A stretch of DNA of 64,000 nt from positions 6,567-70,566 of the forward strand of contig JANOVM010000026.1 of NCBI GenBank assembly GCA_031417395.1, written 5' to 3'. How positions within the stretch are numbered: position 1 is the first letter of the stretch; the number at the start of each line of letters is the position of its first letter. Positions 1,313 through 16,000 of this stretch are shown here, one piece after another. The position numbers were made by a program, and so were the translations under genes. The notes beneath the pieces are model-generated. The model searched no databases and was not told the origin of the DNA. It worked only from the letters and a program-made list of their open reading frames with translations. The stretch is from Bacteroidota bacterium (GTDB lineage: Bacteria; Bacteroidota; Bacteroidia; AKYH767-A; 2013-40CM-41-45).

Positions 1313-2419
1313 CTATTTCTTAAGCAAATCAAACAATCGAGTATTAATATATAGCGTTTCTTTCCAAACTTGTTTGGAGCGAAGCACTTTAATTTTTTCA
1401 AGTTCTTTTAAATACTTGGAGGCTGTGATCCTGGAAATTCCAAAACGTTCGGTCAGGTATTCGTTTTTACAATAGGGTTGTTCAAATAGCAATTCTATTA
1501 ATTCTTTACTGTATGATTTGGGTGCTTTTTTCTTTACAAGCTCTTGTGTTTTAATAAACAGTTTGCTAATCTCTTTCACGTGTGCAATGGTTTCATTGGA
1601 TGTTTGCTCTATTCCTTTTAAAACAAAAAGAACCCATCCTTCCCAATTGTCTTTTGTTCTCACTTCCTGTAACAATCGATAATAATCAGCTTTGTTATTA
1701 ATGATGTAAACACTTAAATACAATATAGGACTATCAAGCAACCCATTTAGTATAAGATAAAGAACATTAATAATCCTGCCTGTACGACCGTTACCATCAT
1801 AAAATGGATGTATACTTTCAAATTGGTAGTGTTGTACTGCCATTTTTATTAAAGGAGAAATATCATCATCTTGATTCAGATACTTTTCGAAGTTATTCAT
1901 CAATCGGTTAATGTTATCGATATTGTCAGGAGGTGTATAAATTACTTTTCCCGAAGCTGCATTCCGTAAAGCTGTTCCGGGCAGCTTCCGAATACCGGCT
2001 GTGTTTTCTTCCAGTATTTTTTGAATTTCAATAATTGAATTGGAGCTTAAAAAACCTTTTTTCTTGATAAAGCGAAAGCCAAACTGCATCGCTTCACGGT
2101 AGCGCAATACTTCTTTGGTAGCACTATCTATTTGTAAGCCTTTTGAAGATAGAGCCTGATATAATTTATCCTGCGTAGTTATTACATTCTCAATTTCAGA
2201 ACTGGCACTTGCTTCTTTTAAAATTACAGCATTCAATAAAATATCGGGATTGGGTAAAATCTTGGCGAGACCTTTTAATTCAGCTAAGGCTACAGAAGAT
2301 TTTACAAGCTGGCGAAGCACTTTTACCGACTCAATCTTACCTTTTTCGGGAGGTAAAAAAGGAAGGTTATTAAAGGGTTTTTCACTATCCGATTTTTTAT
2401 TTGAGGTCTTTTTTGTCAT
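1313..2419 (-). CDS. Fic-domain protein (AMP transferase) with N-terminal inhibitory helix and C-terminal HTH
   Basis: Fic motif HPFYDGNGRTGR; inhibitory (S/T)xxxE(G/N) motif SSEIEN; C-terminal helix-turn-helix-like ISRITASKYLKEL. Confidence 0.93.
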   Translation of the reverse strand: MTKKTSNKKSDSEKPFNNLPFLPPEKGKIESVKVLRQLVKSSVALAELKGLAKILPNPDILLNAVILKEASASSEIENVITTQDKLYQALSSKGLQIDSATKEVLRYREAMQFGFRFIKKKGFLSSNSIIEIQKILEENTAGIRKLPGTALRNAASGKVIYTPPDNIDNINRLMNNFEKYLNQDDDISPLIKMAVQHYQFESIHPFYDGNGRTGRIINVLYLILNGLLDSPILYLSVYIINNKADYYRLLQEVRTKDNWEGWVLFVLKGIEQTSNETIAHVKEISKLFIKTQELVKKKAPKSYSKELIELLFEQPYCKNEYLTERFGISRITASKYLKELEKIKVLRSKQVWKETLYINTRLFDLLKK

Positions 2420-2510
2420 GTAAAGTAATTATACCTGATGTTTTTCTCATGTAAAGATAATGATAAAATTTATACATGATAAAGGTCTCATGTATAAAAT
2501 CTATACATGA
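2416..2510. promoter_or_regulatory. Cluster of palindromic boxes TCATGTA(T/A)A-N5-TATAC(A/C)TGA upstream of and overlapping the fic start codon
   Basis: Perfect 9-bp inverted repeat TCATGTATA-AAATC-TATACATGA at 2488-2510; degenerate copy at 2416-2438 over the ATG; half-sites at 2447-2455 and 2471-2479. An operator role is inferred. Confidence 0.6.
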
Positions 2511-2654
2511 TAAAAGAGGGAAGCGCTGCGGGAATTGGTTAGCGTTAGAAGGGATTCAACCGGGGGATTTAGAAGGGTCACTTTACAGTACATAATTCGA
2601 AAACAAAGCTCGAAAAATATTCGTCGAAGGTTTTACAAGTTCTTTTCAAGAAAA

Positions 2655-3849
2655 TCAATACAAAAGTCCAAACATCCATAATGGAATTTCACTACCCACG
2701 GGATATTCAAGGTCATCCTTTACAACTCTGGCATTTTTTACACCTGAAATTTGTTTTTTTGTTTTGTTTTTGCCACCTATATCAAAGGTATATTTGTTAT
2801 CAATAATAAAATCACCCTGTTTCGGTATTTGAACTTTTCCGACTGCTAGTACCTGTGACAAAAAGAATGTTTCGCGCAGGTTACCCATCTCAACCTGTTC
2901 TTCGGCAAGAGCAAAAAGTAAATTGGTATTGTTAAGATAAATTTTTTCAGGTTTTTGCAGGGTTGTTGTGCTTTTTCCTGCCGGTTGGAGCAGGGTAATA
3001 AGTTTGGCTTGCTCCAGATAGTGAAGATAATTGTTGAGTGAATTTCTATGGATGTTCGTTTTAGCCGCCAGAGCCACTATATTGGGTTTAAACGGAACCT
3101 GTTGTGCAATCACATATATTAACTGCAATACTTTTTTGGCATTGCGAATGTCAAAGTCTTTTAACTCAGCCATATCGTATTCAACAATGGTTCTGATTAA
3201 CTGATTAATTTTGCGGTGAACAGATTCACTGTCTTCCATCATGAAAGGGTAGTATCCTGTTTGAAGATACTCATTGAAAAACTCTAAAGGTCGAAACGAA
3301 CCGGTTAATTGTATTTTATAACCGGCTACATCTTTCATAAGTTTTTCCATTGACAAGGCCGGAATTTCAATGCTATGTTTGAGTAGAAGGAATTCACGAA
3401 ATGAAAGTCCGGGCAATTCGTAAATAATAGCTCTTCTGCTCAAGTCACCCTGTTGCCTGCTAATGTCAATAATTAAAGATCCGGTAAATATTATTTTTAA
3501 ATCAGCATAGAGGTCGTACAAATTTTTTATTTCTGCCGACCAATTTTTGTATTTATGCACTTCATCTAAAACCAGTATTTTCCCTCCCTGTTTATGAAAT
3601 TGAGCTGCTGTTTCTTTCAGACTGTTATTCGTAAAGTACATATCGTCCATTGAAAAATAAACAGCTTTGGAGGATGGCAGGTTTTGCATTTTCAACCATT
3701 GCAAAACCAGGGTTGTTTTACCTGTACCTCTCTGGCCCTTAATTCCAATCAGACGGTTTTTCCATTTAATCTCATGAATGAGATATCGCTTGAAGTCCAG
3801 TGATGTATTACTTAGAAAGGTAATCAGACTGTTCAAAGAGTGTTTTCAT
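2655..3849 (-). pseudogene. AAA_14 ATPase + DUF4143 protein with an apparent +1 frameshift near its 5' end
   Basis: Walker A GQRGTGKT, Walker B LVLDEVH and DUF4143-like KPEKIYLNNTNLL. The ATG at 3849 gives MKTLFEQSDYL then SK-stop; removing one T at about 3816-3818 joins it to the long ORF (LSNTSLDFKRYL). It could also be a sequencing error. Confidence 0.7.
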
Positions 3850-3934
3850 TTGCACTTTCGTTTGTGCAAATATTCTATAATATGCACTTTAAGTTGTACA
3901 TATTATTAATTAAAATGCACATTATGATGTGCAT
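3849..3934. promoter_or_regulatory. Three tandem palindromic boxes TGCAC-N8-GT(G/A)CA upstream of the AAA gene
   Basis: Boxes at 3851-3868, 3883-3900 and 3916-3933 (32-33 bp period); the first, extended to TTTGCAC, touches the start codon. Confidence 0.65.
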
Positions 3935-3965
3935 ATATTGAATTTTTTAGAAAAAGGGGGTTTGT

Positions 3966-4283
3966 TTATCCAATTTTACGCTTCACATGAATAATTTCCC
4001 CGGAATCGCATTGCAGTACATCATTTTTTTTGAAGACTTGAATGGAAAATATTTTTTTCCGTGCTTCAAAATTCATTACTTCAAACATGATATCTGTAAA
4101 AAAGGAGATTGCATCGAAACATTCATCGTCTTTTATCCAATTGGCTTTAAGTTGGAAAAAATAAGAAGTTGAAGAATCTCCCGGGTAAGCTTCCTTCAAG
4201 CAATATTCAGAAACCGGTTTGTTTTGTGCAGAGCATTGATCAATAAATTTATTAATTTCCAGTTTTAATTCATTTCTATCCAT
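3966..4283 (-). CDS. Small hypothetical protein, probable partner of the upstream HEPN gene
   Basis: 105-aa ORF overlapping the HEPN gene by 19 nt, consistent with translational coupling; no family recognised. Confidence 0.7.
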   Translation of the reverse strand: MDRNELKLEINKFIDQCSAQNKPVSEYCLKEAYPGDSSTSYFFQLKANWIKDDECFDAISFFTDIMFEVMNFEARKKIFSIQVFKKNDVLQCDSGEIIHVKRKIG

Positions 4284-4723
4284 TTCAATATACCCTTTTC
4301 ATTTTCCAACAATTCCAGTAATTCTTTACATTCATTTTCGCCGATTGATCCACACGGTTTATATCTTAATTCTTCAGACCATCTTTGAAAAAAAGTAGAG
4401 CTTCCCAAAGATAACGATTTTTCAGAGGCTTTGTCAATATCGAATTTCTCTTTTAATCCGGAAAATATTAAAAGAGTTAAAAGATTATGAGTTTTTACGG
4501 CTTTTCGAACTTCGTTTATCCCTCCAATATCCTTGAGTTTGGACTCATCCGTTGTAAATAAGTTCGGTACCCCAAATCGTCTGCAAATTTTTGCTTTTAA
4601 GGCCAATTCAATTGAATACCCGGATAAATAAAATGCCCCATCAAATTTTCCGGCATGGAATAAAATCCTGGCTTCCTCAATTCTAGTTTTCACTAATTCT
4701 TCAATTTGTTCAGGAGAATCCAT
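4265..4723 (-). CDS. HEPN-superfamily protein
   Basis: HEPN-like helical signature EEARILFHAGKFDGAFYLSGYSIELALKAKI, followed by KTHNLLTLL and WSEELRY motifs. Confidence 0.75.
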   Translation of the reverse strand: MDSPEQIEELVKTRIEEARILFHAGKFDGAFYLSGYSIELALKAKICRRFGVPNLFTTDESKLKDIGGINEVRKAVKTHNLLTLLIFSGLKEKFDIDKASEKSLSLGSSTFFQRWSEELRYKPCGSIGENECKELLELLENEKGILKWIEMN

Positions 4724-4916
4724 TCCGTATCAATAAAAGCTTGCACGAAATACCATGATGATAATGCGCAATACTGTGTTTCAAAAATATTAAAAGATAC
4801 GCTGAATAAAATTTACTATAAGCGGAGAAGTGAATGAATGTTGGGTTCTTTTTTTCATACAAAACCTTAAAAAAATATTCTCTTTTTATTTGTCAAGCTA
4901 AGAAATTGATAATTAT

Positions 4917-4956
4917 TATTCATGATAAACTTTTCATGTATAAAATCTATACATGA
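4917..4956. repeat. Second copy of the fic-upstream palindrome segment
   Basis: 36/40 identical to 2471-2510, including the exact 23-bp palindrome at 4934-4956. Confidence 0.85.
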
Positions 4957-5031
4957 GAATTTTAGAAAACGCTTCGGGATTAGGTTAAAATAAACATTTA
5001 TTCACTAGAGTTCAATTAAATTTTAGGGGAG

Positions 5032-5049
5032 TTATTTTCCAATACATAA
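5032..5049 (-). repeat. Degenerate copy of the last 18 bp of mnmE (att-like site)
   Basis: Minus strand TTATGTATTGGAAAATAA versus mnmE end TTCTGTATTGGGAAGTAA (13348-13365): 15/18 identical, same orientation, still reads CIGK-stop. Confidence 0.6.
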
Positions 5050-5281
5050 TATAACTAATGGTAAAATTTGTCGTAAAATTATAATTTAATAACTATTCTT
5101 TTAAGTGGGATACATTATGGATACAAAATACAATGAAATTGTAATTTCGGTTTATAAATTCTATTAATGATTTTATTTCAAATAATGGTTTTTGGACTGC
5201 GTCCTTTCAAACATATTTACGACTATTTTAAATTAAAACAATGAATTTGTAGAATTTATAAAAAAAAAGTAAATTGCGTGA

Positions 5282-6727
5282 ATGGACCAGGAACAATTTG
5301 AAGCATTAAAGCGTGATAGGGAAATAAGTAAATTAGACGAGGAGATTAGAAAATTACAGCTTGAATCTAATGATTTAAATAAAAATTCTTTTAGAAAGAA
5401 TTGGTTACAGCCTATTTCAATATCAATAATTTTATCTGCCTTAACTTTTATGTGGTCAACATGGAAATCAGTAAAATATGATACAGCATCAGTTATTTCT
5501 GAAAAATATGAACTTTCTAAAAAAGTTGATTCATTGCATGCTGAGGAAGCCAAAATTATTGATACTTTAAATAATATGAATAAAAAATTATTTTTTTATT
5601 CAACAAAAATACACTACCAAGAATCAAAAATAAATGATTTAAATAAAAATTATTTATTATCAGTAAACAATTTTAAAAATGCAAAAAGCAATCTTTCTAG
5701 AGCTGAATATTTATTGCTTGTAAAAAGGGTTGATGTTTCTTTGGATGATATAAAAGAATCGTTATCTAAGAATGACCCTAATTCTTATTTTAACATTGAC
5801 CAAGCAATGAATTATATTTCACAATTCCCGCATTTTAATATTTCAATACAAAAGCGAATTAAAGATCGAATTCGAAACGAGTTTATTATTAATTCTAATT
5901 TATTGATCAAAATTTATGGTGTTAGAATTATGAGTTTATTTGTTAACAACGAATACACTTTGGAATGGAATAAATTAGCAATTCATTATATTGATAGTTC
6001 TTTTACTAGTAGATCTATTTGGTTTGATGATAATATTAAGAATGAATATTTATTCGGACCAAGATTGATTACTGATTCGATTTATGTTGAGTCTATTATT
6101 GATTTACTTAAGAGAATTCAAACTTTCGAAAAGAGTCCTTTAATAAATAATTTAATCAACTACGTATCAATTTATTTTAATTTATCTAATTTTTCAACTG
6201 AGACATCGGATAGGATATATAAAAAATATATTGGTTACTTAATGATTTTGGCAGACGTACAGCATCAAGGCTATTTTGGATCAACATATCCATATTATAA
6301 TGGTATCGATGAGAATGAAAAATTAACTAATTGTTTAGACCTTAATTGTTTTCAAATTATGGCTTCATATTTTATTAAAGATGTACATGAATTTTACATC
6401 AAAAAGAATGAATACGTACTTTATAATATTAAAAAATTTATTTCAAAATACTATGAGCCAACCAATGTTCCGAGAGGTGCAGATACTTATTTTTTTGAGA
6501 GACAAAATTGTTTATCAAATTATTTTCGTGGTTATAATATAGAGCCACCAACAAATGACCAATTAATTCAAATAGGGCGTGATACAAATTTGATTTCCTC
6601 CTTTATTATGTTATTCCACAAACCAAATTGGGATGAGAAAATTAATATTTGGACTGATCCCAAATTAACATATTTTATTGAAAATAAAATTAAGCTTAGG
6701 GAAAAAATAAGGTCTAGTAATTTTTAA
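5282..6727 (+). CDS. Hypothetical protein with one N-terminal hydrophobic segment and coiled-coil-like regions
   Basis: 481-aa ORF in very AT-rich DNA; hydrophobic stretch WLQPISISIILSALTFMWSTW; no family recognised. Confidence 0.75.
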   Translation: MDQEQFEALKRDREISKLDEEIRKLQLESNDLNKNSFRKNWLQPISISIILSALTFMWSTWKSVKYDTASVISEKYELSKKVDSLHAEEAKIIDTLNNMNKKLFFYSTKIHYQESKINDLNKNYLLSVNNFKNAKSNLSRAEYLLLVKRVDVSLDDIKESLSKNDPNSYFNIDQAMNYISQFPHFNISIQKRIKDRIRNEFIINSNLLIKIYGVRIMSLFVNNEYTLEWNKLAIHYIDSSFTSRSIWFDDNIKNEYLFGPRLITDSIYVESIIDLLKRIQTFEKSPLINNLINYVSIYFNLSNFSTETSDRIYKKYIGYLMILADVQHQGYFGSTYPYYNGIDENEKLTNCLDLNCFQIMASYFIKDVHEFYIKKNEYVLYNIKKFISKYYEPTNVPRGADTYFFERQNCLSNYFRGYNIEPPTNDQLIQIGRDTNLISSFIMLFHKPNWDEKINIWTDPKLTYFIENKIKLREKIRSSNF

Positions 6728-6733
6728 AAATAC

Positions 6734-7576
6734 TTATCGGTTTTTCTTTTTTGCTGGCAATGGAAAATTAAATTTTACATCTTTTATTGAAACTATTTCT
6801 AAAACATTTTCTGCTTTTATAACATGTGTTGAACTATCCATCAAATCATACACAAAATAAAATTCAGGTGTGTTTCCAATAAAATAGGATGTGCTATGTT
6901 CGGGATATACTTTAATTAGGTCTTTAAAATCTGTACATACAAGTTTTATAGATCTACTGTTTGGGTTATGCATTTTTATTAATGCTGGAATTGTTGCTGT
7001 AGCTGGATATATAATCAATGCGATAAATATAAAAAGCCCATAACTGTAAATATATTTTGTAATCGGTTTGTTTTCTATTACTATTCTATGTTTTAATCTA
7101 TAGAATGAATATAATATTGCTCCATCAAATAACCATAAGTAAAATAATGGTGTTCCTTCTGGATAAAAATATATCAATATTAGAGCAGCGCCAATTATTA
7201 AAAGTAATAATAACATTCTGATTTTCCTACCCCAAATTCTATTAAATCGAATCTGACATATATTTTTTGCACGTTGTTTAGGTGTTAATACTTTATGATC
7301 TGGTTCAGGTGCAGGAAAGAAAGCATTCATTATTACGTCAAAAAAAACACTAAACAATTGACCTGCTAATAACATAGATATTATCCAAGTTGCCGCAGAA
7401 CCAAGAAAAGCAGAAAACAGAAAACTGATATTCAGGTATGGAACAATATCAAACTGAAAGTATTTGTAATATACTATCTGTTTACAGGCTTCTAAAATTA
7501 ATAATGTAATACTATAGATTGGAATTGCTTGTAAAAGTGTTTCCAATTTAAAGCCTTTATCATCTGAACCTGTCAT
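6734..7576 (-). CDS. Unknown multi-pass membrane protein (paralog B)
   Basis: 280 aa with several hydrophobic segments; shares N- and C-terminal motifs with 7591-8451. Confidence 0.75.
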   Translation of the reverse strand: MTGSDDKGFKLETLLQAIPIYSITLLILEACKQIVYYKYFQFDIVPYLNISFLFSAFLGSAATWIISMLLAGQLFSVFFDVIMNAFFPAPEPDHKVLTPKQRAKNICQIRFNRIWGRKIRMLLLLLIIGAALILIYFYPEGTPLFYLWLFDGAILYSFYRLKHRIVIENKPITKYIYSYGLFIFIALIIYPATATIPALIKMHNPNSRSIKLVCTDFKDLIKVYPEHSTSYFIGNTPEFYFVYDLMDSSTHVIKAENVLEIVSIKDVKFNFPLPAKKKNR

Positions 7577-7590
7577 ATTAGTATTATTTT

Positions 7591-8451
7591 CTATTGAATC
7601 ACTTCTTTAACTCTATCCTTCTTTAGAACTCTCACAGTTAAGAGCTTTTCATCATACACAAAATAGTATTCCGAGGTATTTCCTATATAGTAAATTTCAC
7701 TTCTTGGTTTAATTATTTCATCTTCAAGAATTAATTCAGTTATTCTATAGATCGGTTTATATTTATACGAAAAGTATTCAAAAGCAATATCATTTATAGA
7801 AATTATTAGAAATGTAAGAAGAAGTATTTTCAATGATAGTCGTCGCATCATATAAAATATTTTATCTACCAATAGTTGATACTGCTTTGTCGAAGCTTTC
7901 ACAATTCGAACTTTCCTTTCAGTTTGTTCCATTTGTTCTAACAGATTTTCAGGAACATCTTTTGTTGCAGCAGTTATTTTCTGTTCGTTTATCATTGCAA
8001 CCATTTCTTCTACCTGATGTTTCTGTTTTATATATTTGGGAAATGCTGTCAAATATAATTTTATTATTGACATACCATTTTTACTTAATCCCCACAAGAA
8101 ACTGAATAGAATTAAATATGTAATGTAAATTGTAGAGTTTAGAATTTTTATAGAAAGTAAACTTAGTGATATAAATACTAAACCATCTACATGTTTCAGC
8201 AATTTATATTTATTTTTCCTTTCAGAAAATTCCTTAGCCATTTCTGATAACACAATGACAAATATGTAAACAGCCATTATAAGTACATACCTGCTTACAT
8301 CATATAAAAAGAATAGTAGAAGATCGGAAATTGTTACATAAGGTATAATATTAAACCCAAACAAAGAATAATATCCAACAAGTTTAACCGCTTCGAATAA
8401 AATAAAGGTAGCAGAAAATAAAGGAATTGATTTAGTTAGTTTTTCTAACAT
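7591..8451 (-). CDS. Unknown multi-pass membrane protein (paralog A)
   Basis: 286 aa with several hydrophobic segments; C-terminal YYIGNTSEYYFVYD versus YFIGNTPEFYFVYD in paralog B. Confidence 0.75.
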   Translation of the reverse strand: MLEKLTKSIPLFSATFILFEAVKLVGYYSLFGFNIIPYVTISDLLLFFLYDVSRYVLIMAVYIFVIVLSEMAKEFSERKNKYKLLKHVDGLVFISLSLLSIKILNSTIYITYLILFSFLWGLSKNGMSIIKLYLTAFPKYIKQKHQVEEMVAMINEQKITAATKDVPENLLEQMEQTERKVRIVKASTKQYQLLVDKIFYMMRRLSLKILLLTFLIISINDIAFEYFSYKYKPIYRITELILEDEIIKPRSEIYYIGNTSEYYFVYDEKLLTVRVLKKDRVKEVIQ

Positions 8452-8518
8452 TATTTTTTTAATTCAAGGCAAATTTCACACTCTGTGGGGTATTCTTTGG
8501 TATTAATTAATGTTGGGG

Positions 8519-11494
8519 TCATTTCTGATTTTCCTTATTATTTTCTATAAATTCAATTTCTTCCTTTGTCAAACCGTATAACTGGTAAACAATTTCATTT
8601 ATTTTATTTTCAATATATTTTATTTTGTTATCTATCTGCAGTTTATTTGAATGAAGATTAGTTTCTGAATATTTTTTGTTTAATTCCAATAATTGATGAA
8701 CCAAATTTATGGTTTCGATTTGAAAATTATTTTCAATACTATTGTCTGATCTAATGACTTTAATTGGCAAAAGAGATACATACATTGGTTTGGCTTCAAT
8801 AAACCCACCTTGTCTTTCGGCAGCAATTTTCTTTAAATAATACCACAAAAGATTTGAATTTAGTAGACCTAATAAATAAAAGTCATCAGAAACAAAGAAT
8901 GCGGCTGGTGCATTAATATATAAAGGATCTTTTATAATAGTGAAAGGAGAAAGTTTACATAAATTTCCCCAAGCAATTTTAGGTTTTTCAAATTCCTTAT
9001 AATATTCAGTAGAATCTTGTATTTCATACCATTTATAGGTTCCCGCCTTTCGACCTTCCCAATTCGTGCCTTTAAAATCTTTAGGCTTAGGCATTAGTTG
9101 TTTCTTAAATTGCAATAAATAATTCTTTATTGATGGGTATTTTTCGATTTCAATTCCGCGTTTTGTAAATATGATATATTTTGTTGTTTCTGGATATTTA
9201 TATCGCTTAATATCTCGTCCAATGATAAAAGGTTTAATAACTTCAATATTATTTTTATCCTCTTTTAATAATTTATTTTTTATCGTATTTTCAATTATAA
9301 AAGCTTCATTATAGCCAGTTAAAATTCCTCGAAATATTTTTTGGTTTAAATATGAATTTAATGGAATCCCTTTACTTTTTATTTTATTAATAAGATTTTG
9401 TTCAGAGGTCGAAACAAGATTCCATCCATTATCATCCAAGGAATCAATACGAATATTTATTTTATTCTCGAGCACATAATTATCTAATGTATCAAATGAA
9501 AGAGTCTTTACATTTACAATATTAAATTCAGATGAATTTTGACCTGACCTAACGATTAGAATACATGGATAAGTTGTGGCTCCGCTAAAAACCGGTAATT
9601 CTCCAAAATCAATTATCTCGAGTATATTTTTTGATTTAATCCAGCGCCTTAAATTTTCACCGTAATTTGCTCTCATCCATTTATTAGCAACGATAATTCC
9701 AAATAATCCATCCTTATTAAGTAATTCAATTCCCTTTTCAATAAAATAGCTGTATAAATCAGCCATTCCATGATAAACCTTGTAGTGTTTTTCGAAATAT
9801 TTTTTTGGGTCACCAAGTAATTCTTGCCTTACATAAGGAGGGTTACCAATTACAGCATCGAAGCCCCCATTTTTAAATATTTCTCGAAACTCTTTCTTCC
9901 AATTAAATGGTTTAACCTTTCTATCCTCCCCAAAATCAAGTTCGCCAGAATAAAAATCAACATCAATCAAACTATTCCCACATTTAATATTCTCATCAAG
10001 CGTCGGCAAAACTCTTTCATGAAACATTTTCATCTGATTAGAAATACTTGCTTCTGTTTCACCCTCCATACATTTAAGCAAAAGGGAAAGCTTAGTTACC
10101 TCAACAGCGTTTGCATCAATATCAACGCCAAAAATATTGTTCAGTAAAATTCTTTTCTTTTCAGAGGTTGTTAAATTACCTTCAGGAGTTAAAAGGTTTC
10201 CCTTGCTGGTTTTAGCTTTTTTTCCATTGTCGGTATAGTAGTTTTTATGAAAGTCAAGTAAGAACTGGTAAGCACCTATTAGGAAACTCCCAGAACCACA
10301 GGCAGGGTCAACAATTTTTAGTTTACTTATTTCGTCGGGCTTCTTTCCTTCAATGTGTTTGCCGACGGTGTTTTTTACAATGTAATCGACAATGTACTGT
10401 GGAGTGTAGTAAACGCCGCCGGCTTTTCTTACTTCAGGCTTTTCTTCAATCTTAGCATGATGGGCGGGTGTTATACGAATAACCTTTCCTAAAAACTGCT
10501 CGTATGCCGTTCCCATAATTTCAACCGGCATTGCATCGAAAGCAAACGGGCTGGGGTAGTACATGTCGGTTATGATGTTCTTCAATACCTTATTGTCAAT
10601 AGTCAGGTGTTCGCTTATTTTATCTTTCTTAAAATCAAATAAGCCTGAATTGTATTTATCGTCTGCCTGTTTGAAAAGGTTGAATAGGTTTTTGTAATGG
10701 TCTCCTGCTAAGGTTTGTTTGAGGTTTCCAAAAGGCTCTACATTTCTGTCTTCTGCAATACGCAGGAATATAAGTCTATCAATAATTTGTTGTACGACAA
10801 AGTTTATTTCGTCTTCGTCGAGTTTCTTATTGTTTATTGCAATGCTTGTTGCAAGGTAGGTTCTCCATTCGTCGAGGGATTGCAGAAATTCTTTATCAAC
10901 GGTGGCTGTTCCTTTTTTGTGGGTGTCGCTTTTAACGAATTTGTCGAAGCTGCCTTTAAGTACATTTTCTTTTCCGAACGTTTCCCAGAAAAAATCAAAT
11001 TCTTTTGCATAATCACGAAAGTTTAAATACTTTATTCTTGCTGTGGAAGCTTTATCGTTTGGGTTTGGTTTAACAGTGCAATCGTAAAGCGAAAATTCTT
11101 CGAAGTCTGTAATAATACTGATAGGAAGTTTTGCACTCCAACCGTATCGGCGAATCTGATAGGCGGGAGGTATTTCTTCTTTGACTAATACACTTGGTTT
11201 TTTAGCTTCAACAAAAAATAATTTTTTACCACCGACAAGGCGAAAAGAATAATCCGGTGCTTTTGAAACGCCGCTAATTTTTAATCTGTCTTCATGAATT
11301 ACCTCTCTGTAGGATTCTGCATAGCCTTGTTCATTGTCAACATCCCAGCCCAGTGATTTGAAAAATGGGTCAATGAAATCCCGCCTGGTTTGTGTTTCAT
11401 TGTAAGTGGAATTCTTGTACGATGCGTATTGCTCGTCGAAACGTTTTACAAGTTCGGTTAATTTTTTAATTGCCTGATCTTTCGGATTCGCCAT
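8519..11494 (-). CDS. Type IIG restriction-modification enzyme (endonuclease + N6-adenine MTase + TRD; Eco57I/TaqI-C-like)
   Basis: N-terminal PD-(D/E)xK-like PDYSF...FVEAKKP; SAM-binding motif DPACGSGSF; catalytic GNPPY; C-terminal target-recognition region. Confidence 0.92.
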   Translation of the reverse strand: MANPKDQAIKKLTELVKRFDEQYASYKNSTYNETQTRRDFIDPFFKSLGWDVDNEQGYAESYREVIHEDRLKISGVSKAPDYSFRLVGGKKLFFVEAKKPSVLVKEEIPPAYQIRRYGWSAKLPISIITDFEEFSLYDCTVKPNPNDKASTARIKYLNFRDYAKEFDFFWETFGKENVLKGSFDKFVKSDTHKKGTATVDKEFLQSLDEWRTYLATSIAINNKKLDEDEINFVVQQIIDRLIFLRIAEDRNVEPFGNLKQTLAGDHYKNLFNLFKQADDKYNSGLFDFKKDKISEHLTIDNKVLKNIITDMYYPSPFAFDAMPVEIMGTAYEQFLGKVIRITPAHHAKIEEKPEVRKAGGVYYTPQYIVDYIVKNTVGKHIEGKKPDEISKLKIVDPACGSGSFLIGAYQFLLDFHKNYYTDNGKKAKTSKGNLLTPEGNLTTSEKKRILLNNIFGVDIDANAVEVTKLSLLLKCMEGETEASISNQMKMFHERVLPTLDENIKCGNSLIDVDFYSGELDFGEDRKVKPFNWKKEFREIFKNGGFDAVIGNPPYVRQELLGDPKKYFEKHYKVYHGMADLYSYFIEKGIELLNKDGLFGIIVANKWMRANYGENLRRWIKSKNILEIIDFGELPVFSGATTYPCILIVRSGQNSSEFNIVNVKTLSFDTLDNYVLENKINIRIDSLDDNGWNLVSTSEQNLINKIKSKGIPLNSYLNQKIFRGILTGYNEAFIIENTIKNKLLKEDKNNIEVIKPFIIGRDIKRYKYPETTKYIIFTKRGIEIEKYPSIKNYLLQFKKQLMPKPKDFKGTNWEGRKAGTYKWYEIQDSTEYYKEFEKPKIAWGNLCKLSPFTIIKDPLYINAPAAFFVSDDFYLLGLLNSNLLWYYLKKIAAERQGGFIEAKPMYVSLLPIKVIRSDNSIENNFQIETINLVHQLLELNKKYSETNLHSNKLQIDNKIKYIENKINEIVYQLYGLTKEEIEFIENNKENQK

Positions 11495-11536
11495 TACATC
11501 TGGAAAGTTTAATAATTGTCCAATATAAAGAAATAT

Positions 11537-11665
11537 TTATATCATTTTAAATGACTCTTCCTGAATGGGTTCCGGTTCAGGCAATCCGGCATCCAGGCAA
11601 GCTTTTATCATATCGGGAATACCTGTACCCATTCGTTCAATGTATCCTGCCAAAAATAATGGGTC
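11537..11665 (-). pseudogene. 42-codon remnant of a gene paralogous to the ATPase domain of 11743-13263
   Basis: Translates DPLFLAGYIERMGTGIPDMIKACLDAGLPEPEPIQEESFKMI*, versus EPMYLAGYIERLGTGTSDMVRLSRIAGLKEPDFRQEEIFKAI in the upstream gene; no credible start. Confidence 0.8.
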
Positions 11666-11742
11666 AGATTAAAGGTATAATTATTAAAATTTCACCTCGA
11701 TCAACAACCCTTTTACCTGTTTTTAGATTTTTAAAAGAATGA

Positions 11743-13263
11743 TTATTTCCGGTCATTTTTTTTCTTATTCATTTCTTCTTGAATTTTTTTACCTTTTTCA
11801 GTTAACCGATACTTCTGATTTTTACTAGTCGGAGTTTTAGGCAGTGTCATTTCTATATACCCATATTTCAATGCAGGATCAATATAAACTGTTTTAAATG
11901 ACTTTCTGTCCTTTAACCCCAGTAATTCCTGCAATCCATCCCTGCTTAGAGATCCATTCATAATTGAAACAAGCTTTTTAATAGAAAAGTCTTCTTCGAC
12001 TTTTAGAGTATCTTGAGGGGTGTCATGAGGGGTGTCTTGAGGGGTGGAAAGTGTGGGAACCGGACGGTATATAATAGCTTTGAAAATTTCCTCCTGTCTG
12101 AAATCAGGTTCTTTTAGTCCTGCAATACGAGATAATCGAACCATATCGGATGTTCCTGTTCCTAATCGTTCAATGTATCCCGCAAGATACATAGGCTCTG
12201 CCAGCAATGGATTAGCCGGAACGGATGTGTGTAGCCTTTTTAATTTATCTACAGTCCAGCCCAGCGGCAATGATCCCGGATTCCAAACTTCAAGGCGATC
12301 GCCAAATAGCATTATTTGAACACTTGCATTGCTTGTATAGTCCCTGTGAACTATTGCATTTACAATTGCTTCAGCGATTACTTCTTTAGGAATTTCATAG
12401 CTTCCCGGAATTTGAATATTCTCTTTGCGGGTGCCTATACGATAATCTAATTTTGACAAAACAAAGTCAACTGCTTGGTCTGCCAGTTCAAAAACTGTCC
12501 CCTTGAATACTTTATATGAAGGAATCGGTTTTTCAACTGTTGTTCCATGAAATGAGGCACATCGGATTTCAGAGTTAATGAAAAAACGCTGGGGAGATTT
12601 GCCAAAAAGTAAAATAGCTGAATTTGTGAGTTTATTGTCCTGAAAAAGGTTTAAATGTGTAAGAACGTTTTCAATTTTATCGTTTTCATCGAAAGGGAAC
12701 CCCCTTTTTGAATTTGCAATCTGAATAAAGGATTTTATCTTGTCGCTGTCAATGTCGGATATTACAGCATTTTCAATAATTGAAGTGTCAAAAGGAACAG
12801 ATTGTATTATTTTTTTTTCTTCAAGGTATCTGACTAGTGCTGCATATACAGACGATTTCAAATCATCTATTGAAGAAAACTTTTTTCTTATAATGCCATC
12901 CTGAACTTTTGAAATAAATATACGCTCTTTCGGATCTCTTTCGGAATTAGAATGATTTGTAATAAAAATTAATCTTGTCTTATTATGTAATGTAGCATGA
13001 TCAAATTCGTGCTCTGTTGGAGATATTGCATTTTTTTCGTTGCCATACTGCTTGCCAAGAATGCCTAAATAAATATCACTTTTTTCTACTTCGTTCAAAT
13101 AAATATGATCAGCATTCTGATCAATAGCCGGTAAAAGTTCAAATAGAAATGGTTCAAAGAACTTGCTTAATAAAGGATCGGATGAAATGCATTCAAATAA
13201 AACTTGACGTTCTGATTTAAATTCATTTTGTACACTGCTGATAAATATTTTTCTTCGATTCAT
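11743..13263 (-). CDS. DUF4062 domain + HATPase_c_4 (RecG-C-like) + winged-HTH protein
   Basis: N-terminal KIFISSVQNEFKSER...SDIYLGILGKQYG (DUF4062-like); EAIVNAIVHRDY, NPG and IERLGTG (HATPase_c_4); C-terminal PTSKNQKYRLT; TPQD-type linker repeat. Confidence 0.8.
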   Translation of the reverse strand: MNRRKIFISSVQNEFKSERQVLFECISSDPLLSKFFEPFLFELLPAIDQNADHIYLNEVEKSDIYLGILGKQYGNEKNAISPTEHEFDHATLHNKTRLIFITNHSNSERDPKERIFISKVQDGIIRKKFSSIDDLKSSVYAALVRYLEEKKIIQSVPFDTSIIENAVISDIDSDKIKSFIQIANSKRGFPFDENDKIENVLTHLNLFQDNKLTNSAILLFGKSPQRFFINSEIRCASFHGTTVEKPIPSYKVFKGTVFELADQAVDFVLSKLDYRIGTRKENIQIPGSYEIPKEVIAEAIVNAIVHRDYTSNASVQIMLFGDRLEVWNPGSLPLGWTVDKLKRLHTSVPANPLLAEPMYLAGYIERLGTGTSDMVRLSRIAGLKEPDFRQEEIFKAIIYRPVPTLSTPQDTPHDTPQDTLKVEEDFSIKKLVSIMNGSLSRDGLQELLGLKDRKSFKTVYIDPALKYGYIEMTLPKTPTSKNQKYRLTEKGKKIQEEMNKKKNDRK

Positions 13264-13347
13264 TCGGTATCAATACAAATTTTATGAATTTTTTTAATAT
13301 TCACAAGTAAAAGAAACCCTAAGTGAAATTGTCAAGAAGCATTTTTT

Positions 13348-14748
13348 TTACTTCCCAATACAGAACCTCGAAAAAATATTCTCCAGCAAGTCCTCCGTTG
13401 AAATCTCCCCGGTAATCTCACCCAAATAATTCAAAGCATGACGAAGGTTGGTGGCTATTAAATCGTTGGTAAGATTGCCAAGCAATCCTTCATGAACTTT
13501 TTGCAATGCTTCTGAAGTTTTTTTCAATGCTTCTGTATGACGCGCACTGGTGACGATGGAATTGTTTGCTTCTACATTGCCTGTTTTGTATAGTGAAATT
13601 AGAAAATTGCGCAGACTGTCAATATTTGTTTTGTCTTTTGCTGAAATTAAAATAAGGTCTTTTATAAAAGCGTAGTCTTTGTCTATGTTGTAAGAACTGA
13701 CGGCATCAACTTTATTGCCTACAGGAATAATGTTTACTTTTTCATTTACACTTTCCTTAAGTTTTTCGAGTTGAGAATGCAATTCTTTGCCCGAGGTAGT
13801 TATCATGTCAAATACATACAATATCACCGGACTTGAATTCATTTTTTCAAAAGTCTTTGCTACACCGATTTTTTCAATTGCATCGTGTGTTTCGCGCAGA
13901 CCGGCTGTGTCGATGAAGCGGAATTTAATTCCGTCGACAATGATTTCTTCTTCTACCGTGTCTCGCGTTGTTCCTTCTGTTTCACTTACGATGGCGCGCT
14001 CTTCATTCAGCAAAGCATTCAGAAGGGTTGACTTTCCTGCATTTGGTCTGCCGGCAATTACGATGGGTATACCGGAGCGAATAGCATTTCCAAATTCAAA
14101 AGAGGCTATGAGTCTTCTTATAACTTTCAGAAGATTTTCAACTGTTTCACGCAGATGTCCGCGGTTTGCAAATTCTACATCTTCTTCTGCAAAGTCGAGT
14201 TCCAGTTCTATCAGGGAAGCAAGATGGATCAATTCATTTCGGAGTTTTTTGATTTCTTCTGAAAAGCCGCCACGCATTTGTTTCAATGCCAGACTATGTG
14301 CGCCTGCTGAATCGGAAGCGATAAGATCCGCTACGGCTTCTGCCTGACTTAAATCCATTTTGCCATTTAAAAAAGCGCGCAGTGTAAATTCTCCCGGTGT
14401 TGCCAAACGGGCACCTGCTTCCTGACAAAGCATGAGAATCTGCTGCTGCACAAAAGTAGAACCATGACAGGAAATTTCAATGGTATCTTCTCCCGTGTAA
14501 CTGTGCGGTGCTTTCATTACGGCAAGCAGAACTTCATCAATTAATTTCCCATTTGATTCAATGATACCAAAGTTAAGCGTATGGCTTTTATAGGAATCAG
14601 TAGAGCCGGCTTTTTTTTTAAGAGGCTTAAATAATTTATCCGCAATAACATAGACTCCTGTTCCGCTTAATCGTATAACTGCTATTGCAGACGTTCCGCC
14701 ACCTGTTGCCAAAGCTACAATGGTATCGCCCGGATTGAATCCTTTCAT
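13348..14748 (-). CDS. mnmE: tRNA uridine-34 modification GTPase
   Basis: DTIVALAT, GEFTLRAFLNGKMDLSQAEAV, GRPNAGKS, DTAG, NKVD and C-terminal FCIGK. Confidence 0.98.
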   Translation of the reverse strand: MKGFNPGDTIVALATGGGTSAIAVIRLSGTGVYVIADKLFKPLKKKAGSTDSYKSHTLNFGIIESNGKLIDEVLLAVMKAPHSYTGEDTIEISCHGSTFVQQQILMLCQEAGARLATPGEFTLRAFLNGKMDLSQAEAVADLIASDSAGAHSLALKQMRGGFSEEIKKLRNELIHLASLIELELDFAEEDVEFANRGHLRETVENLLKVIRRLIASFEFGNAIRSGIPIVIAGRPNAGKSTLLNALLNEERAIVSETEGTTRDTVEEEIIVDGIKFRFIDTAGLRETHDAIEKIGVAKTFEKMNSSPVILYVFDMITTSGKELHSQLEKLKESVNEKVNIIPVGNKVDAVSSYNIDKDYAFIKDLILISAKDKTNIDSLRNFLISLYKTGNVEANNSIVTSARHTEALKKTSEALQKVHEGLLGNLTNDLIATNLRHALNYLGEITGEISTEDLLENIFSRFCIGK

Positions 14749-15030: not shown

Positions 15031-15912
15031 ATGAGCATTCTCGTCAACAAAAAAAGTAAAATTATCGTCCAGGGCTTCACAGGTAGTGAAGGAACATTTC
15101 ATGCAGGACAAATGATTGAATACGGCACCAATGTTGTTGGCGGCGTTACGCCCGGCAAAGGTGGCACCAGTCATTTGGATCGTCCTGTTTTTAATTCAGT
15201 AAGCGATGCTGTAAAGCAAACCGGAGCAGATGTTTCTATCGTATTCGTTCCGCCTGCTTTTGCTGCTGATGCCATTATGGAAGCAGCTGAAGCCGGTATT
15301 AAGCTTATCGTTGCAATTACAGAAGGCATTCCTGTTAAGGATATGATCGTGGTGAAAAACTACATCGATAGTCGTTCTGTTCGACTCATCGGCCCGAATT
15401 GTCCGGGTATCATAACAGCAGATGAGTGTAAGGTTGGAATTATGCCCGGCTTTGTTTTCAAAAAAGGACGCATAGGAATTGTTTCCAAATCAGGAACGCT
15501 GACCTATGAAGCCGCCGACCAGGTTGTAAAAGCCGGAATGGGAATTTCAACAGCCATTGGAATAGGAGGAGACCCTATCATTGGAACAACAACAAAAGAA
15601 GCCATAGAGCTTTTTATGAATGATAAAGATACCGATGGTATTGTAATGATTGGAGAAATAGGAGGAAGCCTTGAAGCTGAAGCCGCTCTCTGGATCAAAG
15701 CCCATGGAACAAAACCTGTCGTTGGATTTATAGCCGGACAAACAGCTCCTCCGGGACGCCGCATGGGCCATGCCGGAGCCATCGTTGGCGGTGCCGATGA
15801 TACAGCAGCAGCCAAAATGAAAATCATGCGCGAATGCGGCATTCACGTCGTTGAATCACCTGCAGTTATTGGGGTGACAATGGCGAAGGTAGTGGGGAAG
15901 GTACCGGCTTAG
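15031..15912 (+). CDS. sucD: Succinyl-CoA synthetase alpha subunit
   Basis: VQGFTG...[15 protein letters not shown] and MGHAGA (phospho-His). Confidence 0.98.
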
Positions 15913-16000
15913 GAATTTGAAAATTTGAGAATTTGAAAATTTGAAAATGAAGGTACGAACTCCCCATTTTCAAATTTTCATATTCCCAAATTCTCAAATT
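15913..16000. repeat. GAAAATTT-type tandem array with inverted counterpart between convergent genes
   Basis: gaatttgaaaatttgagaatttgaaaatttgaaaatg ... cattttcaaattttcatattcccaaattctcaaatt. Confidence 0.8.

What the first reader, a model, noticed from the sequence alone, without database searches (positions are those of the whole stretch)
2598..13381. Repeated mnmE 3'-end remnants suggest tandem cassette accretion at mnmE without a local integrase
Seen: the last 18 bp of mnmE (TTCTGTATTGGGAAGTAA) recur in the same orientation at 5032-5049 with 15/18 identity, still encoding CIGK-stop. A more decayed match lies at about 2598-2622 (ctcgaaaaatattc versus ctcgaaaaaatattc at 13367-13381). Both remnants are followed about 45-50 bp downstream by the same 17-mer and then the same 40-bp operator block. 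Established: SGI1-family integrative elements use the last 18 bp of trmE/mnmE as attB. Inference: two or three successive integrations built this island, in a phylum where I know of no such named system; the recombinase acts in trans or has been lost.
Basis: partly seen in the sequence, partly recalled or inferred. Interest (0 to 1): 0.75.

Follow-up and report, generated by a model that had tools for sequence, protein, structure and literature searches.

The report
Decayed island stack behind mnmE
The 12 kb of phage-defence genes behind the housekeeping gene mnmE in this uncultured Flavobacteriales bacterium were most likely stacked by mobile elements that insert into the gene's last 18 bases, the target the SGI1 resistance island uses in another phylum; relatives still carry the integrase, and this genome assembly does not.

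Summary
mnmE is at 13348-14748 (-). Its tail recurs at 5032-5049 (15/18; all three differences at third codon positions) and, decayed, at 2577-2622. Of the seven intergenic regions I tested, only these two resemble the mnmE tail.

Relatives support the interpretation. In 15 of the 19 genomes of the order that carry a particular tyrosine integrase, it lies within 1 kb downstream of mnmE on the same strand. Five integrase-bearing or integrase-less elements of 1.9-28.8 kb are flanked by direct repeats of the 18-mer. Their right ends share two TTTGTACC arm-type sites. They also share a core in which GTTACTTT mirrors the mnmE end around the block TGTATYG.

The copy at 5031-5055 has the element-type left half (7/9 mirror symmetry, against 2-4/9 for six mnmE-side sites). 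It also sits at a GC jump.

The shared "operator block" is not part of the att site. It is the conserved promoter region of SoFic genes, so the window holds one intact and one gutted SoFic unit.

The genome assembly has no integrase of this family; its closest relative sits at tRNA-Glu. The result is a decayed tandem array of integrated elements: a new member of a known kind.

The parts
13348..14748 (-). mnmE (tRNA modification GTPase), 466 aa, intact
   Evidence: Pfam TrmE_N, MMR_HSR1 and MnmE_helical. Orthologues in 28 of 31 relatives.
13347..13371 (-). Current mnmE-side core site (attL type): TCGAGGTTC | TGTATTG | GGAAGTAAA. The part right of the overlap, and the following AAAAAA..GC, resemble the tail that the same cassette supplies in G009.
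   Evidence: Arm mirror symmetry is only 4/9, as in the other five mnmE-side sites (2-4/9).
11743..13263 (-). Module 1: DUF4062 / HATPase_c_4 / Fic-like_C (winged-helix) gene, 506 aa. This is the unit nearest mnmE.
   Evidence: Pfam. About 80% identical homologue directly behind mnmE in G009, where it is the only gene between the real tail and a displaced 57-nt or longer copy of the mnmE 3' end.
11495..11742 (-). Relic of the C-terminus of another HATPase_c_4 gene (DPLFLAGYIERMGTGIPDMIKACLDAGLPEPEP...). It marks gene turnover at a module border. No mnmE-like sequence here.
   Evidence: Repeat D7, translation, z=-0.2 against the tail.
5282..11494 (.). Module 2: type IIG restriction-modification gene (8519-11494, -), two unknown proteins (7591-8451 and 6734-7576, -) and an unknown 481-aa gene (5282-6727, +). 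GC is 24-29% over 5001-10000, against 36.6% for the genome.
   Evidence: Pfam and PADLOC REase_MTase_IIG E 2e-216. Composition.
5031..5055 (-). Relic B1, an attR-type core site: GTTATATTA | TGTATTG | GAAAATAAC. Its left half is the element-type mirror of the mnmE end, not mnmE sequence. It lies at the GC jump.
   Evidence: 15/18 to own tail. Unique genome hit to the genus consensus. 7/9 arm symmetry, against 2-4/9 for six mnmE-side sites. 83-87% identity over 30-35 nt to an attR of G002 and the mnmE end of G018.
4889..4987 (-). Copy B of the SoFic upstream block (palindrome TCATGTATA-N5-TATACATGA plus a second half-site). The SoFic gene it should drive is gone.
   Evidence: The same block lies in front of SoFic genes in G009:C284 and G044:C42.
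4853..4882 (-). Relic B2: GAGAATATTTTTTTAAGGTTTTGTAT, matching mnmE positions -36 to -11. Similarity stops inside the TGTATYG block. It sits where the SoFic 5' UTR should be.
   Evidence: D13. (top non-self nhmmer hit in the genome). (E down to 6.5e-5 in the island). (z=8.7)..
2655..4723 (-). Module 3: HEPN gene (4265-4723) overlapping an unknown 105-aa gene (3966-4283), then an AAA_14/DUF4143 ATPase (2655-3836; PADLOC PDC-S01).
2577..2622 (-). Relic A1: a decayed copy, at least 45 nt long, of the mnmE 3' end including mnmE sequence left of the core (ATTT-TTCGAG-CTTTGTTTTCGAA-TTATGTACTGTAAAGTGAC). It is a displaced gene end, not an element-type core.
   Evidence: (z=6.7, 0/300). Arm symmetry 5/9.
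2443..2541 (-). Copy A of the SoFic upstream block, in front of the intact SoFic gene.
1313..2419 (-). SoFic-type Fic adenylyltransferase gene, 368 aa. This is the last recognisable defence unit of the stack.
   Evidence: Pfam Fic_N, Fic and SoFic-like_C. PADLOC SoFic E 4e-117. NCBIfam ProtAdlyltaseSoFic 435 bits, below the 550 cut-off.

Best explanation
The stretch from 13347 down to at least 1313 is a tandem array of decayed integrated elements at the 3' end of mnmE.

In Flavobacteriales, a family of tyrosine-recombinase elements carries an integrase and an excisionase-type HTH protein. Some also carry a DUF3987 protein and a Zn-ribbon/DUF6371/DUF6965 protein. These elements integrate into a core made of the last 18 bp of mnmE plus one base. 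The element side supplies GTTAC(T/A)TT(T/C), the mirror image of the gene end GAAAGTAAC. Strand exchange most likely falls in the 7-bp block TGTATYG between them. Two TTTGTACC arm-type sites lie 35-60 nt to the left in the element arm. Each insertion restores the CIGK-stop end of mnmE and pushes the older tail downstream.

In this genome at least three such events left three relics:
- B1 (5031-5055), an element-type right junction closing the low-GC restriction-modification block.
- B2 (4853-4882), a truncated mnmE 3' fragment.
- A1 (2577-2622), a displaced mnmE 3' end of at least 45 nt.

B1 and A1 each head a SoFic unit of tail, about 45 nt, then SoFic promoter. One unit is intact and one is gutted. 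The integrase and the arm-type sites have since been lost, so the stack is now a fixed defence island.

Shown: the relics and their significance, the integrase-mnmE linkage, the direct repeats and site anatomy in relatives, and the absence of the integrase from this assembly.

Inferred: the position of strand exchange, the order and number of events, and that the events happened in this lineage rather than arriving as a ready-made composite.
For: 1. The relics are non-random and occur only in two of the seven tested regions.
2. B1 differs from the live tail only at third codon positions, so it evolved as coding sequence. It has the element-type left core arm with 7/9 mirror symmetry, against 2-4/9 for six mnmE-side sites. 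It matches an attR of G002 and the mnmE end of G018 beyond the 18-mer, and sits at a GC step from 31% to 24%.
3. The region downstream of mnmE differs in every genus-mate examined. Several contigs break within about 150 nt of the stop.
4. In G009, the homologue of this window's first island gene is a single-gene insert between the live tail and a displaced copy of 57 nt or more that carries the genus-consensus ending.
5. In G017, mnmE is followed by an excisionase-type HTH, an integrase, PRTase plus reverse transcriptase, and what looks by ORF size like a type I restriction-modification system (not domain-checked). A second tail lies 28.8 kb on.
6. In 15 of the 19 genomes of the order with this integrase, it lies within 1 kb behind mnmE on the same strand. 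The same holds in 12 of 45 metagenomic loci. Five of the 80 loci have a tail repeat downstream on the same strand, and none upstream or inverted.
7. Elements with both ends (G074 6.5 kb, G079 6.3 kb, L104 7.4 kb, L102 1.85 kb, and G017) have right junctions like those on separate contigs in G018, G002 and G009. Most share the arm-type sites and the palindromic core; G079 lacks the arm-type sites.
8. No family integrase occurs in the own genome. The best hit scores 249 bits, against 465-584 for members, and sits next to tRNA-Glu.
Against: - No intact arm-type sites remain in the window or anywhere in the genome, so B1 is assigned to the family on its core alone.
- A1 is heavily decayed. It is not significant in a plain blastn search and marginal against the own tail (3/500). 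It is clearly significant only against the genus consensus.
- B2 lies inside an otherwise collinear SoFic upstream region, which a simple attL/attR model does not predict.
- No closer relative than 76% MnmE identity was available, so no presence/absence polymorphism of these particular modules could be seen.
- The genome is a metagenome-assembled genome of 80 contigs. An integrase on an unbinned contig cannot be excluded.
Confidence: 0.8

Rival explanations
1. The composite island was assembled elsewhere and arrived here in one step, either by one integration event or by homologous recombination in mnmE and a distal flank. On this reading the relics are passengers, not records of events in this lineage.
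For: - The two SoFic upstream blocks are only 76% identical. That is about as far apart as either is from SoFic upstream regions of other species, so at least one came from another lineage.
- Transfer of whole accreted tandems is documented for other systems (PMC5704250).
- G002:C69 and G018:C67 share near-identical junction sequences, although their MnmE proteins are diverged to different degrees from this genome's (61% and 70% identity).
Against: - GC differs sharply between modules (24-29% against 31-37%).
- The first gene is shared with G009 as a stand-alone cassette.
- Both points fit stepwise addition better than one-step arrival. This rival still requires the same site-specific mechanism to have made the relics.
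Confidence: 0.15
2. The island is still mobile. A family integrase is present but unassembled or unbinned, or a resident unrelated integrase acts in trans on the 18-bp repeats.
For: - The assembly has 80 contigs, and mobile genes often escape binning.
- Integrase-less inserts with intact arm-type sites exist elsewhere (L102), which suggests mobilisation in trans is possible in principle.
Against: - Estimated completeness is 98.9%.
- No family member is found at E<=1e-40, or by a family profile.
- The nearest integrase is tRNA-Glu-linked.
- The window's relics lack arm-type sites, and their cores differ from the live tail at 3 to 5 of 18 positions.
Confidence: 0.04
3. The tail-like sequences are chance matches in AT-rich DNA. 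The only real feature would then be a duplicated SoFic promoter/operator.
For: - The genome is 36.6% GC.
- At 2 mismatches, forward hits per genome are about as common as hits to the reversed control pattern.
- A1 alone is weak against the own tail.
Against: - Only two of the seven tested regions score above shuffles (z 5.8 and 6.7).
- B2 is the top hit in the whole genome.
- B1 is unique in the genome, has third-position-only changes, and has an element-type mirror arm.
- The same scars recur downstream, and never upstream or inverted, in other loci.
Confidence: 0.01

Closest known systems
SGI1-family and other integrative mobilizable islands at the 3' end of trmE/thdF (=mnmE) in Gammaproteobacteria
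   Same: - The target is the last 18 bp of the same gene.
- A tyrosine integrase and an excisionase sit next to the gene end.
- 18-bp direct repeats flank the element.
- Different island families share the site, and tandem arrays occur (PMC2297512; PMC9035990).
   Different: - The phylum is different (Bacteroidota, order Flavobacteriales).
- The integrase has the Bacteroidota-type Phage_int_SAM_5 N-terminal module and reaches no curated NCBIfam cut-off.
- No sequence comparison with SGI1 Int or the SGI1 backbone was made, so homology is untested.
- The cargo here is phage defence and T9SS proteins, not an antibiotic-resistance integron.
- The window's copy has no integrase at all.
CIMEs and the accretion model (ICESt1/ICESt3 at the fda 3' end in Streptococcus thermophilus; review PMC5704250)
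   Same: The sequence of events is the same: integration, then decay of the integration genes with att scars retained, then a further integration into the att site that contains the gene end, giving tandem arrays.
   Different: A CIME by definition keeps functional attL and attR. Here the arm-type sites are gone and the cores are diverged, so cis-mobilisation is doubtful. No conjugation or mobilisation genes were identified in any module.
Tycheposons and tRNA-linked island arrays of marine cyanobacteria
   Same: Stacks of cargo modules sit behind a conserved gene end, separated by partial copies of that end, and many modules lack an integrase.
   Different: The target here is a protein-coding gene end, not a tRNA. 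The recombinase family and hosts are different.
Integrase-less defence hotspots between core genes (E. coli and Pseudomonas 'core defence hotspots', PMC10121019, PMC10250203)
   Same: There is a variable defence-gene stack at a fixed chromosomal position with no local recombinase.
   Different: Here att-site scars and a cognate integrase family in relatives give a specific insertion mechanism, rather than flanking homologous recombination alone. I saw only the abstracts of these papers.

Membership tests
Tyrosine-integrase islands targeting the mnmE 3' end (Flavobacteriales family defined here) | Insertion at the last 18 bp of mnmE, leaving a same-strand copy of the tail downstream | tested here: met
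   5032-5049 is 15/18 to the own tail and 16/18 to the genus consensus, and is the only such hit in the genome. Further relics lie at 4857-4882 and 2577-2622.
Tyrosine-integrase islands targeting the mnmE 3' end (Flavobacteriales family defined here) | Right junction carries the element-type core arm GTTAC(T/A)TT(T/C), mirroring GAAAGTAAC | tested here: met
   B1 reads GTTATATTA | TGTATTG | GAAAATAAC, with 7/9 symmetry. Nine right junctions with an element-type left arm have 5-9/9, and six mnmE-side sites have 2-4/9. A1 scores 5/9, which is borderline.
Tyrosine-integrase islands targeting the mnmE 3' end (Flavobacteriales family defined here) | Two TTTGTACC arm-type sites 35-60 nt left of the right-hand core | tested here: not met
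   There is no tandem TTGTACC pair next to any tail-like sequence in the genome. Upstream of B1 only ATGTATC remains at the expected distance.
Tyrosine-integrase islands targeting the mnmE 3' end (Flavobacteriales family defined here) | Family integrase (and excisionase-type HTH) within 1 kb downstream of mnmE | tested here: not met
   No Phage_integrase hit lies on the contig. No family member is found in the genome. The feature is present in 15 relatives.
SGI1 family (Gammaproteobacteria) | Integration into the last 18 bp of trmE/thdF | tested here: met
   The gene end is the same. The SGI1 site is as described in PMC2297512.
SGI1 family (Gammaproteobacteria) | Conserved SGI1 backbone (SGI1-type Int/Xis, mobilisation genes, IncA/C helper dependence) | not tested
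   No SGI1 sequences were on hand. None of the window's genes has a Pfam domain suggesting mobilisation. Membership is not claimed.
CIME (cis-mobilizable element) | Integration and transfer genes lost | tested here: met
   No recombinase or transfer-related domain is found in 1313-13347.
CIME (cis-mobilizable element) | Functional attL and attR retained | tested here: inconclusive
   The cores are recognisable, but they differ at 3-5 of 18 positions and the arm-type sites are missing. Function cannot be judged from sequence.
Integron | IntI-type integrase with attI, and promoterless cassettes ending in attC hairpins | tested here: not met
   The family integrase scores 61 bits against a cut-off of 265 for integron integrase. 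The units carry their own promoter regions, such as the SoFic block. The boundaries are copies of a gene end, not attC.
Defence island | Cluster of recognised anti-phage genes | tested here: met
   PADLOC hits are SoFic (4e-117), PDC-S01 (1e-28), type IIG RM (2e-216), and a HEPN candidate, PDC-M28A (8e-6).

The most novel reading that the evidence does not exclude
The mnmE end of Flavobacteriales, and perhaps Bacteroidota generally, works as an integron-like exchange platform. Short integrase-less units of one to a few genes (SoFic, DUF4062-ATPase, T9SS cargo) would keep a core and arm sites, as in the 1.85-kb unit of locus L102. They would be excised, passed on and re-inserted in trans by the mnmE-linked integrase of a co-resident or visiting element. 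Defence and surface-protein genes would then be shuffled as cassettes at one chromosomal address.
Probability: 0.2. Interest if true: 0.7.

Novelty: new member of a known kind. Interest (0 to 1): 0.45.

Why it matters
It shows how a phage-defence island with no recombinase of its own came to sit at a fixed chromosomal address. It was laid down by integrative elements whose integrase survives in relatives.

It also documents that the last 18 bp of mnmE are used as an attachment site in Flavobacteriales by a widespread integrase family: 15 of 146 genomes of the order and 12 of 45 metagenomic loci. This is the target made famous by the SGI1 resistance islands of Gammaproteobacteria. I found no paper describing this in the held library.

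Practically, the mnmE end is a predictable place to look for new defence genes in Bacteroidota. The inferred core and arm sites give a testable recombination system.

Tried and rejected
- Whole-genome search for further copies of the 99-nt block and the palindrome: only the two in the window.
- Search for longer mnmE fragments, at DNA and protein level, anywhere in the 19.9 kb behind mnmE: nothing beyond B1 and B2. A1 emerged only against the genus consensus.
- Search for a tail relic after the DUF4062 gene (11495-11742), as seen in G009: none. I found a HATPase_c_4 gene relic instead.
- Search for a tail relic after SoFic (1196-1312): not above shuffles.
- Search for intact arm-type sites in the own genome: none.
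- Idea that B2 is merely the diverged SoFic 5' UTR: rejected. By eye on the alignment it matches the SoFic UTRs at only about 10 of 26 positions, against 23-24/26 for mnmE tails.
- Idea that the palindrome is an integrase or Xer site: rejected. The same block precedes SoFic genes that show no tail copy beside them and lie on other contigs than mnmE.
- Looking for same-species strains in metagenome contigs: best MnmE identity was 59%, so no close relatives.
- Integrase query against genome contigs: returned only itself.
- Three literature searches found no description of mnmE-targeting elements in Bacteroidota.

Full report
**What is in the window**

mnmE lies at 13348-14748 on the minus strand (Pfam TrmE_N, MMR_HSR1 and MnmE_helical). 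Reading in its direction of transcription, the following come after its stop:

- A DUF4062/HATPase_c_4/winged-helix gene (11743-13263).
- A 248-nt spacer holding the relic of the C-terminus of another HATPase_c_4 gene.
- A type IIG restriction-modification gene (8519-11494), two unknown proteins, and an oppositely oriented 481-aa gene. Over 5001-10000 this block has 24-29% GC, against 36.6% for the genome.
- A 558-nt spacer (4724-5281).
- A HEPN gene with an overlapping 105-aa partner, and an AAA_14/DUF4143 ATPase (2655-4723).
- A 235-nt spacer (2420-2654).
- A SoFic-type Fic gene (1313-2419).

PADLOC recognises SoFic, PDC-S01, type IIG RM and a HEPN candidate, so this is a defence island. The contig carries no tyrosine recombinase.

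**Check of the observation**

- TTATGTATTGGAAAATAA at 5032-5049 is 15/18 to the live tail TTCTGTATTGGGAAGTAA, on the same strand.
- The 14-mer is at 2609-2622.
- A shared block lies 45 nt further on (2443-2541 versus 4889-4987, 76% over 99 nt). It occurs nowhere else in the genome.

The matches are not chance:

- Only 14 other sites in 4.47 Mb match the 18-mer with 3 or fewer mismatches.
- At 2 or fewer mismatches to the genus consensus, the genome has exactly two hits: the live tail and 5032-5049.
- Among the seven regions I tested (the intergenic spacers, and the SoFic-distal spacer), only 4724-5281 and 2420-2654 resemble the genus-consensus tail above dinucleotide shuffles (z 5.8 and 6.7, 0/300). 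The rest have z between -0.8 and 1.3.
- All three differences in 5032-5049 are at third codon positions, as expected of a sequence that evolved as the coding end of an mnmE gene.

Positions 4857-4882, GAGAATATTTTTTTAAGGTTTTGTAT, match mnmE positions -36 to -11 at 23/26 (z 8.7). This is the best non-self hit in the entire genome to a profile of genus mnmE tails.

**Relatives**

- One genus-mate is titled "uncultured Flavobacteriales bacterium".
- The closest MnmE is 76% identical.
- The DNA behind mnmE differs in every genus-mate examined. In two of them it runs after one to three genes into a block syntenic with another contig (C74) of this genome. Several contigs break within about 150 nt of the mnmE stop.

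Three cases are especially telling.

G009. The homologue (about 80% identity) of this window's first island gene is the only gene between the live tail and a displaced copy of at least 57 nt of the mnmE 3' end. The displaced copy ends in the genus-consensus TTTTGTATTGGAAAGTAA. The live gene now ends in an unusual TTTTGCATCGGCAAATAA, followed by AAAAA..GC as in this window.

G017. mnmE is followed by an excisionase-type HTH protein, a 429-aa tyrosine integrase, a PRTase/reverse-transcriptase pair and further large ORFs, with a second tail 28.8 kb downstream. The large ORFs look by size like a type I restriction-modification system, but I did not check their domains.

G002 and G018. Right-hand junctions sit on separate contigs.

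**The integrase family**

- Across 146 genomes of the order, 19 have a homologue of the G017 integrase at E<=1e-40.
- In 15 of these it lies 285-884 nt downstream of mnmE on the same strand, in at least ten genera of two families.
- Of 80 metagenomic mnmE loci, 45 have at least 1.5 kb of downstream sequence, and 12 of those have the integrase in that position.
- Across the 80 loci, five have a tail repeat (2 or fewer mismatches) downstream on the same strand. None has one upstream or inverted.
- Elements with both ends measure 1.85 to 28.8 kb. The 1.85-kb unit (L102) and a 6.8-kb stretch between two tail copies (L124) have no integrase and carry T9SS-type cargo. The 6.5- and 7.4-kb units carry the integrase and a Zn-ribbon/DUF6371/DUF6965 protein; the 7.4-kb unit also has a DUF3987 protein.

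**Anatomy of the site**

- Right junctions share two (A/T)TTGTACC repeats in 11-nt phase, 35-60 nt left of the core. These look like arm-type sites.
- Immediately left of the 18-mer stands GTTAC(T/A)TT(T/C), the reverse complement of the gene end GAAAGTAAC. This leaves a 7-nt block, TGTATYG, in the middle.
- Mirror symmetry of the two 9-nt arms is 5-9/9 at nine right junctions that carry an element-type left arm. A tenth downstream tail copy (G002:C43) has 3/9. Six mnmE-side sites have 2-4/9.
- Differences between the left and right copies of the 18-mer fall outside this central block, at positions 3, 12 and 15. The block is therefore the likely overlap region. This is an inference from five repeat pairs, not a mapped cleavage site.

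**Reading the three relics**

B1 (5031-5055) is GTTATATTA | TGTATTG | GAAAATAAC, with 7/9 symmetry.

- It is therefore an element-type right junction, not a stray piece of mnmE.
- Its T and A at the mirrored positions match the variant seen in metagenomic element L104.
- Its flanks match an attR of G002 and the mnmE end of G018 over 30-35 nt.
- It coincides with the GC step.

A1 (2577-2622) aligns over 45 nt, with three single-base gaps, to the genus tail. The alignment includes mnmE sequence left of the core. It is a displaced gene end of the G009 type.

B2 keeps mnmE sequence left of the core and stops inside TGTATYG. It sits in the place of the 5' UTR of a SoFic unit. Its origin is unresolved: it may be a half-site left by a further event, or a conversion patch.

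**The "operator block"**

The shared palindrome block is also found in front of SoFic genes in G009:C284 and G044:C42. Those genes are 81% and 73% identical to this one, lie on other contigs than mnmE, and show no tail copy beside them.

It is therefore the SoFic promoter/operator region, not part of the att site. Its presence after both B1 and A1 means the window holds two SoFic units, each made of tail, about 45 nt, then the promoter block. The mnmE-proximal unit has lost its gene.

The two blocks are as diverged from each other as from other species' copies, so at least one came from another lineage.

Earlier notes of this scan report Fic-gene islets flanked by mnmE tail copies in other Bacteroidota genomes. 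I treat these as leads. They fit, but I did not verify them.

**The recombinase**

A profile of 21 family integrases scores its members at 465-584 bits. The best protein of this genome scores 249 bits, and its gene lies beside tRNA-Glu. No intact arm-type sites remain. Loss is therefore more likely than action in trans, with the caveat that this is an 80-contig metagenome-assembled genome.

**Comparison with what is known**

- The last 18 bp of thdF/trmE as attB, flanking 18-bp repeats, and tandem arrays of different islands at that site are established for SGI1 and its neighbours in Gammaproteobacteria (PMC2297512; PMC9035990).
- Integration, decay to an integrase-less element and further accretion is the published model for tandem islands (PMC5704250).
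- The present case follows that logic in a different phylum. Its integrase has a Bacteroidota-type SAM_5 module and reaches no curated family cut-off.
- Whether that integrase shares descent with SGI1 Int was not tested.
- I found no paper on mnmE-targeting elements in Bacteroidota in the held library.

I therefore file this as a new member of a known kind. The window's copy is a decayed example.

**Limits**

- No same-species strains were available.
- The distal border of the island is unknown. The contig ends 7.9 kb beyond SoFic, within or after T9SS-type genes.
- The order of events is inferred only.

Noticed in passing
window 11495-11742: The spacer between the DUF4062 gene and the restriction-modification gene encodes, in one frame, DPLFLAGYIERMGTGIPDMIKACLDAGLPEPEPIQEESFKMI-stop. 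This is the C-terminal relic of a second HATPase_c_4 gene, paralogous to 11743-13263.
   Followed up: partly
window 3849-3934: Three TGCAC-N8-GTGCA-like boxes lie in front of the AAA_14/DUF4143 gene. I saw them while reading the sequence, and a first-reader note also lists them. I did not examine them.
   Followed up: no
L003 (G018:C157 end) and L078 (G018:C67:508-670): In G018, the sequence after the live mnmE stop and the sequence after a right-hand junction on another contig are the same for at least 143 nt, apart from 2 SNPs. The mnmE contig ends there. Either the MAG mixes an empty-site strain with an occupied one, or the left arm of the element copies the chromosomal flank. Metagenomic locus L124 shows the same thing over at least 32 nt.
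   Followed up: partly
G014:C76 (L082/L097) versus G014:C30 (L004): This MAG has two mnmE 3' ends: a full gene on C30, and a 234-aa C-terminal half at a contig end on C76. Only the second is followed by the family integrase. This is probably strain heterogeneity at the site.
   Followed up: no
G104:C3:5960-8927 (not fetched): A degenerate mnmE copy (42% identity, 5 in-frame stops) lies next to a degenerate family integrase, while a second mnmE match (58% identity, residues 8-315) lies on another contig. This may be a whole displaced gene copy.
   Followed up: no
L091:206-6683 (G074) and L104:11006-18376: The small integrase-bearing elements share a backbone of integrase and a Zn_ribbon_16/DUF6371/DUF6965 protein; L104 also has a DUF3987 protein. 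This may be a replication module, suggesting satellite- or plasmid-like biology.
   Followed up: partly
L032:3295 (G002:C43:55094) and L083:1012 (G012:C79): A further tail copy, CTCTGTATTGGAAAGTAA, is preceded by several GTTAC/GTAAC repeats. Between it and mnmE in G002 lie a T9SS protein and an outer-membrane beta-barrel gene. In G012 it is followed by CCGAGCAAAA, the same motif that follows the live stop in four genus-mates. This looks like a second att flavour.
   Followed up: partly
window 1-1000: The gene running off the window start (a 499-aa T9SS-type protein, C26:6378-7877) contains seven 87-nt tandem repeat units.
   Followed up: no
window 15909-16000: A 36-nt inverted repeat built of 8-nt AATTTGAA-type units lies between sucD and the next gene.
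   Followed up: no
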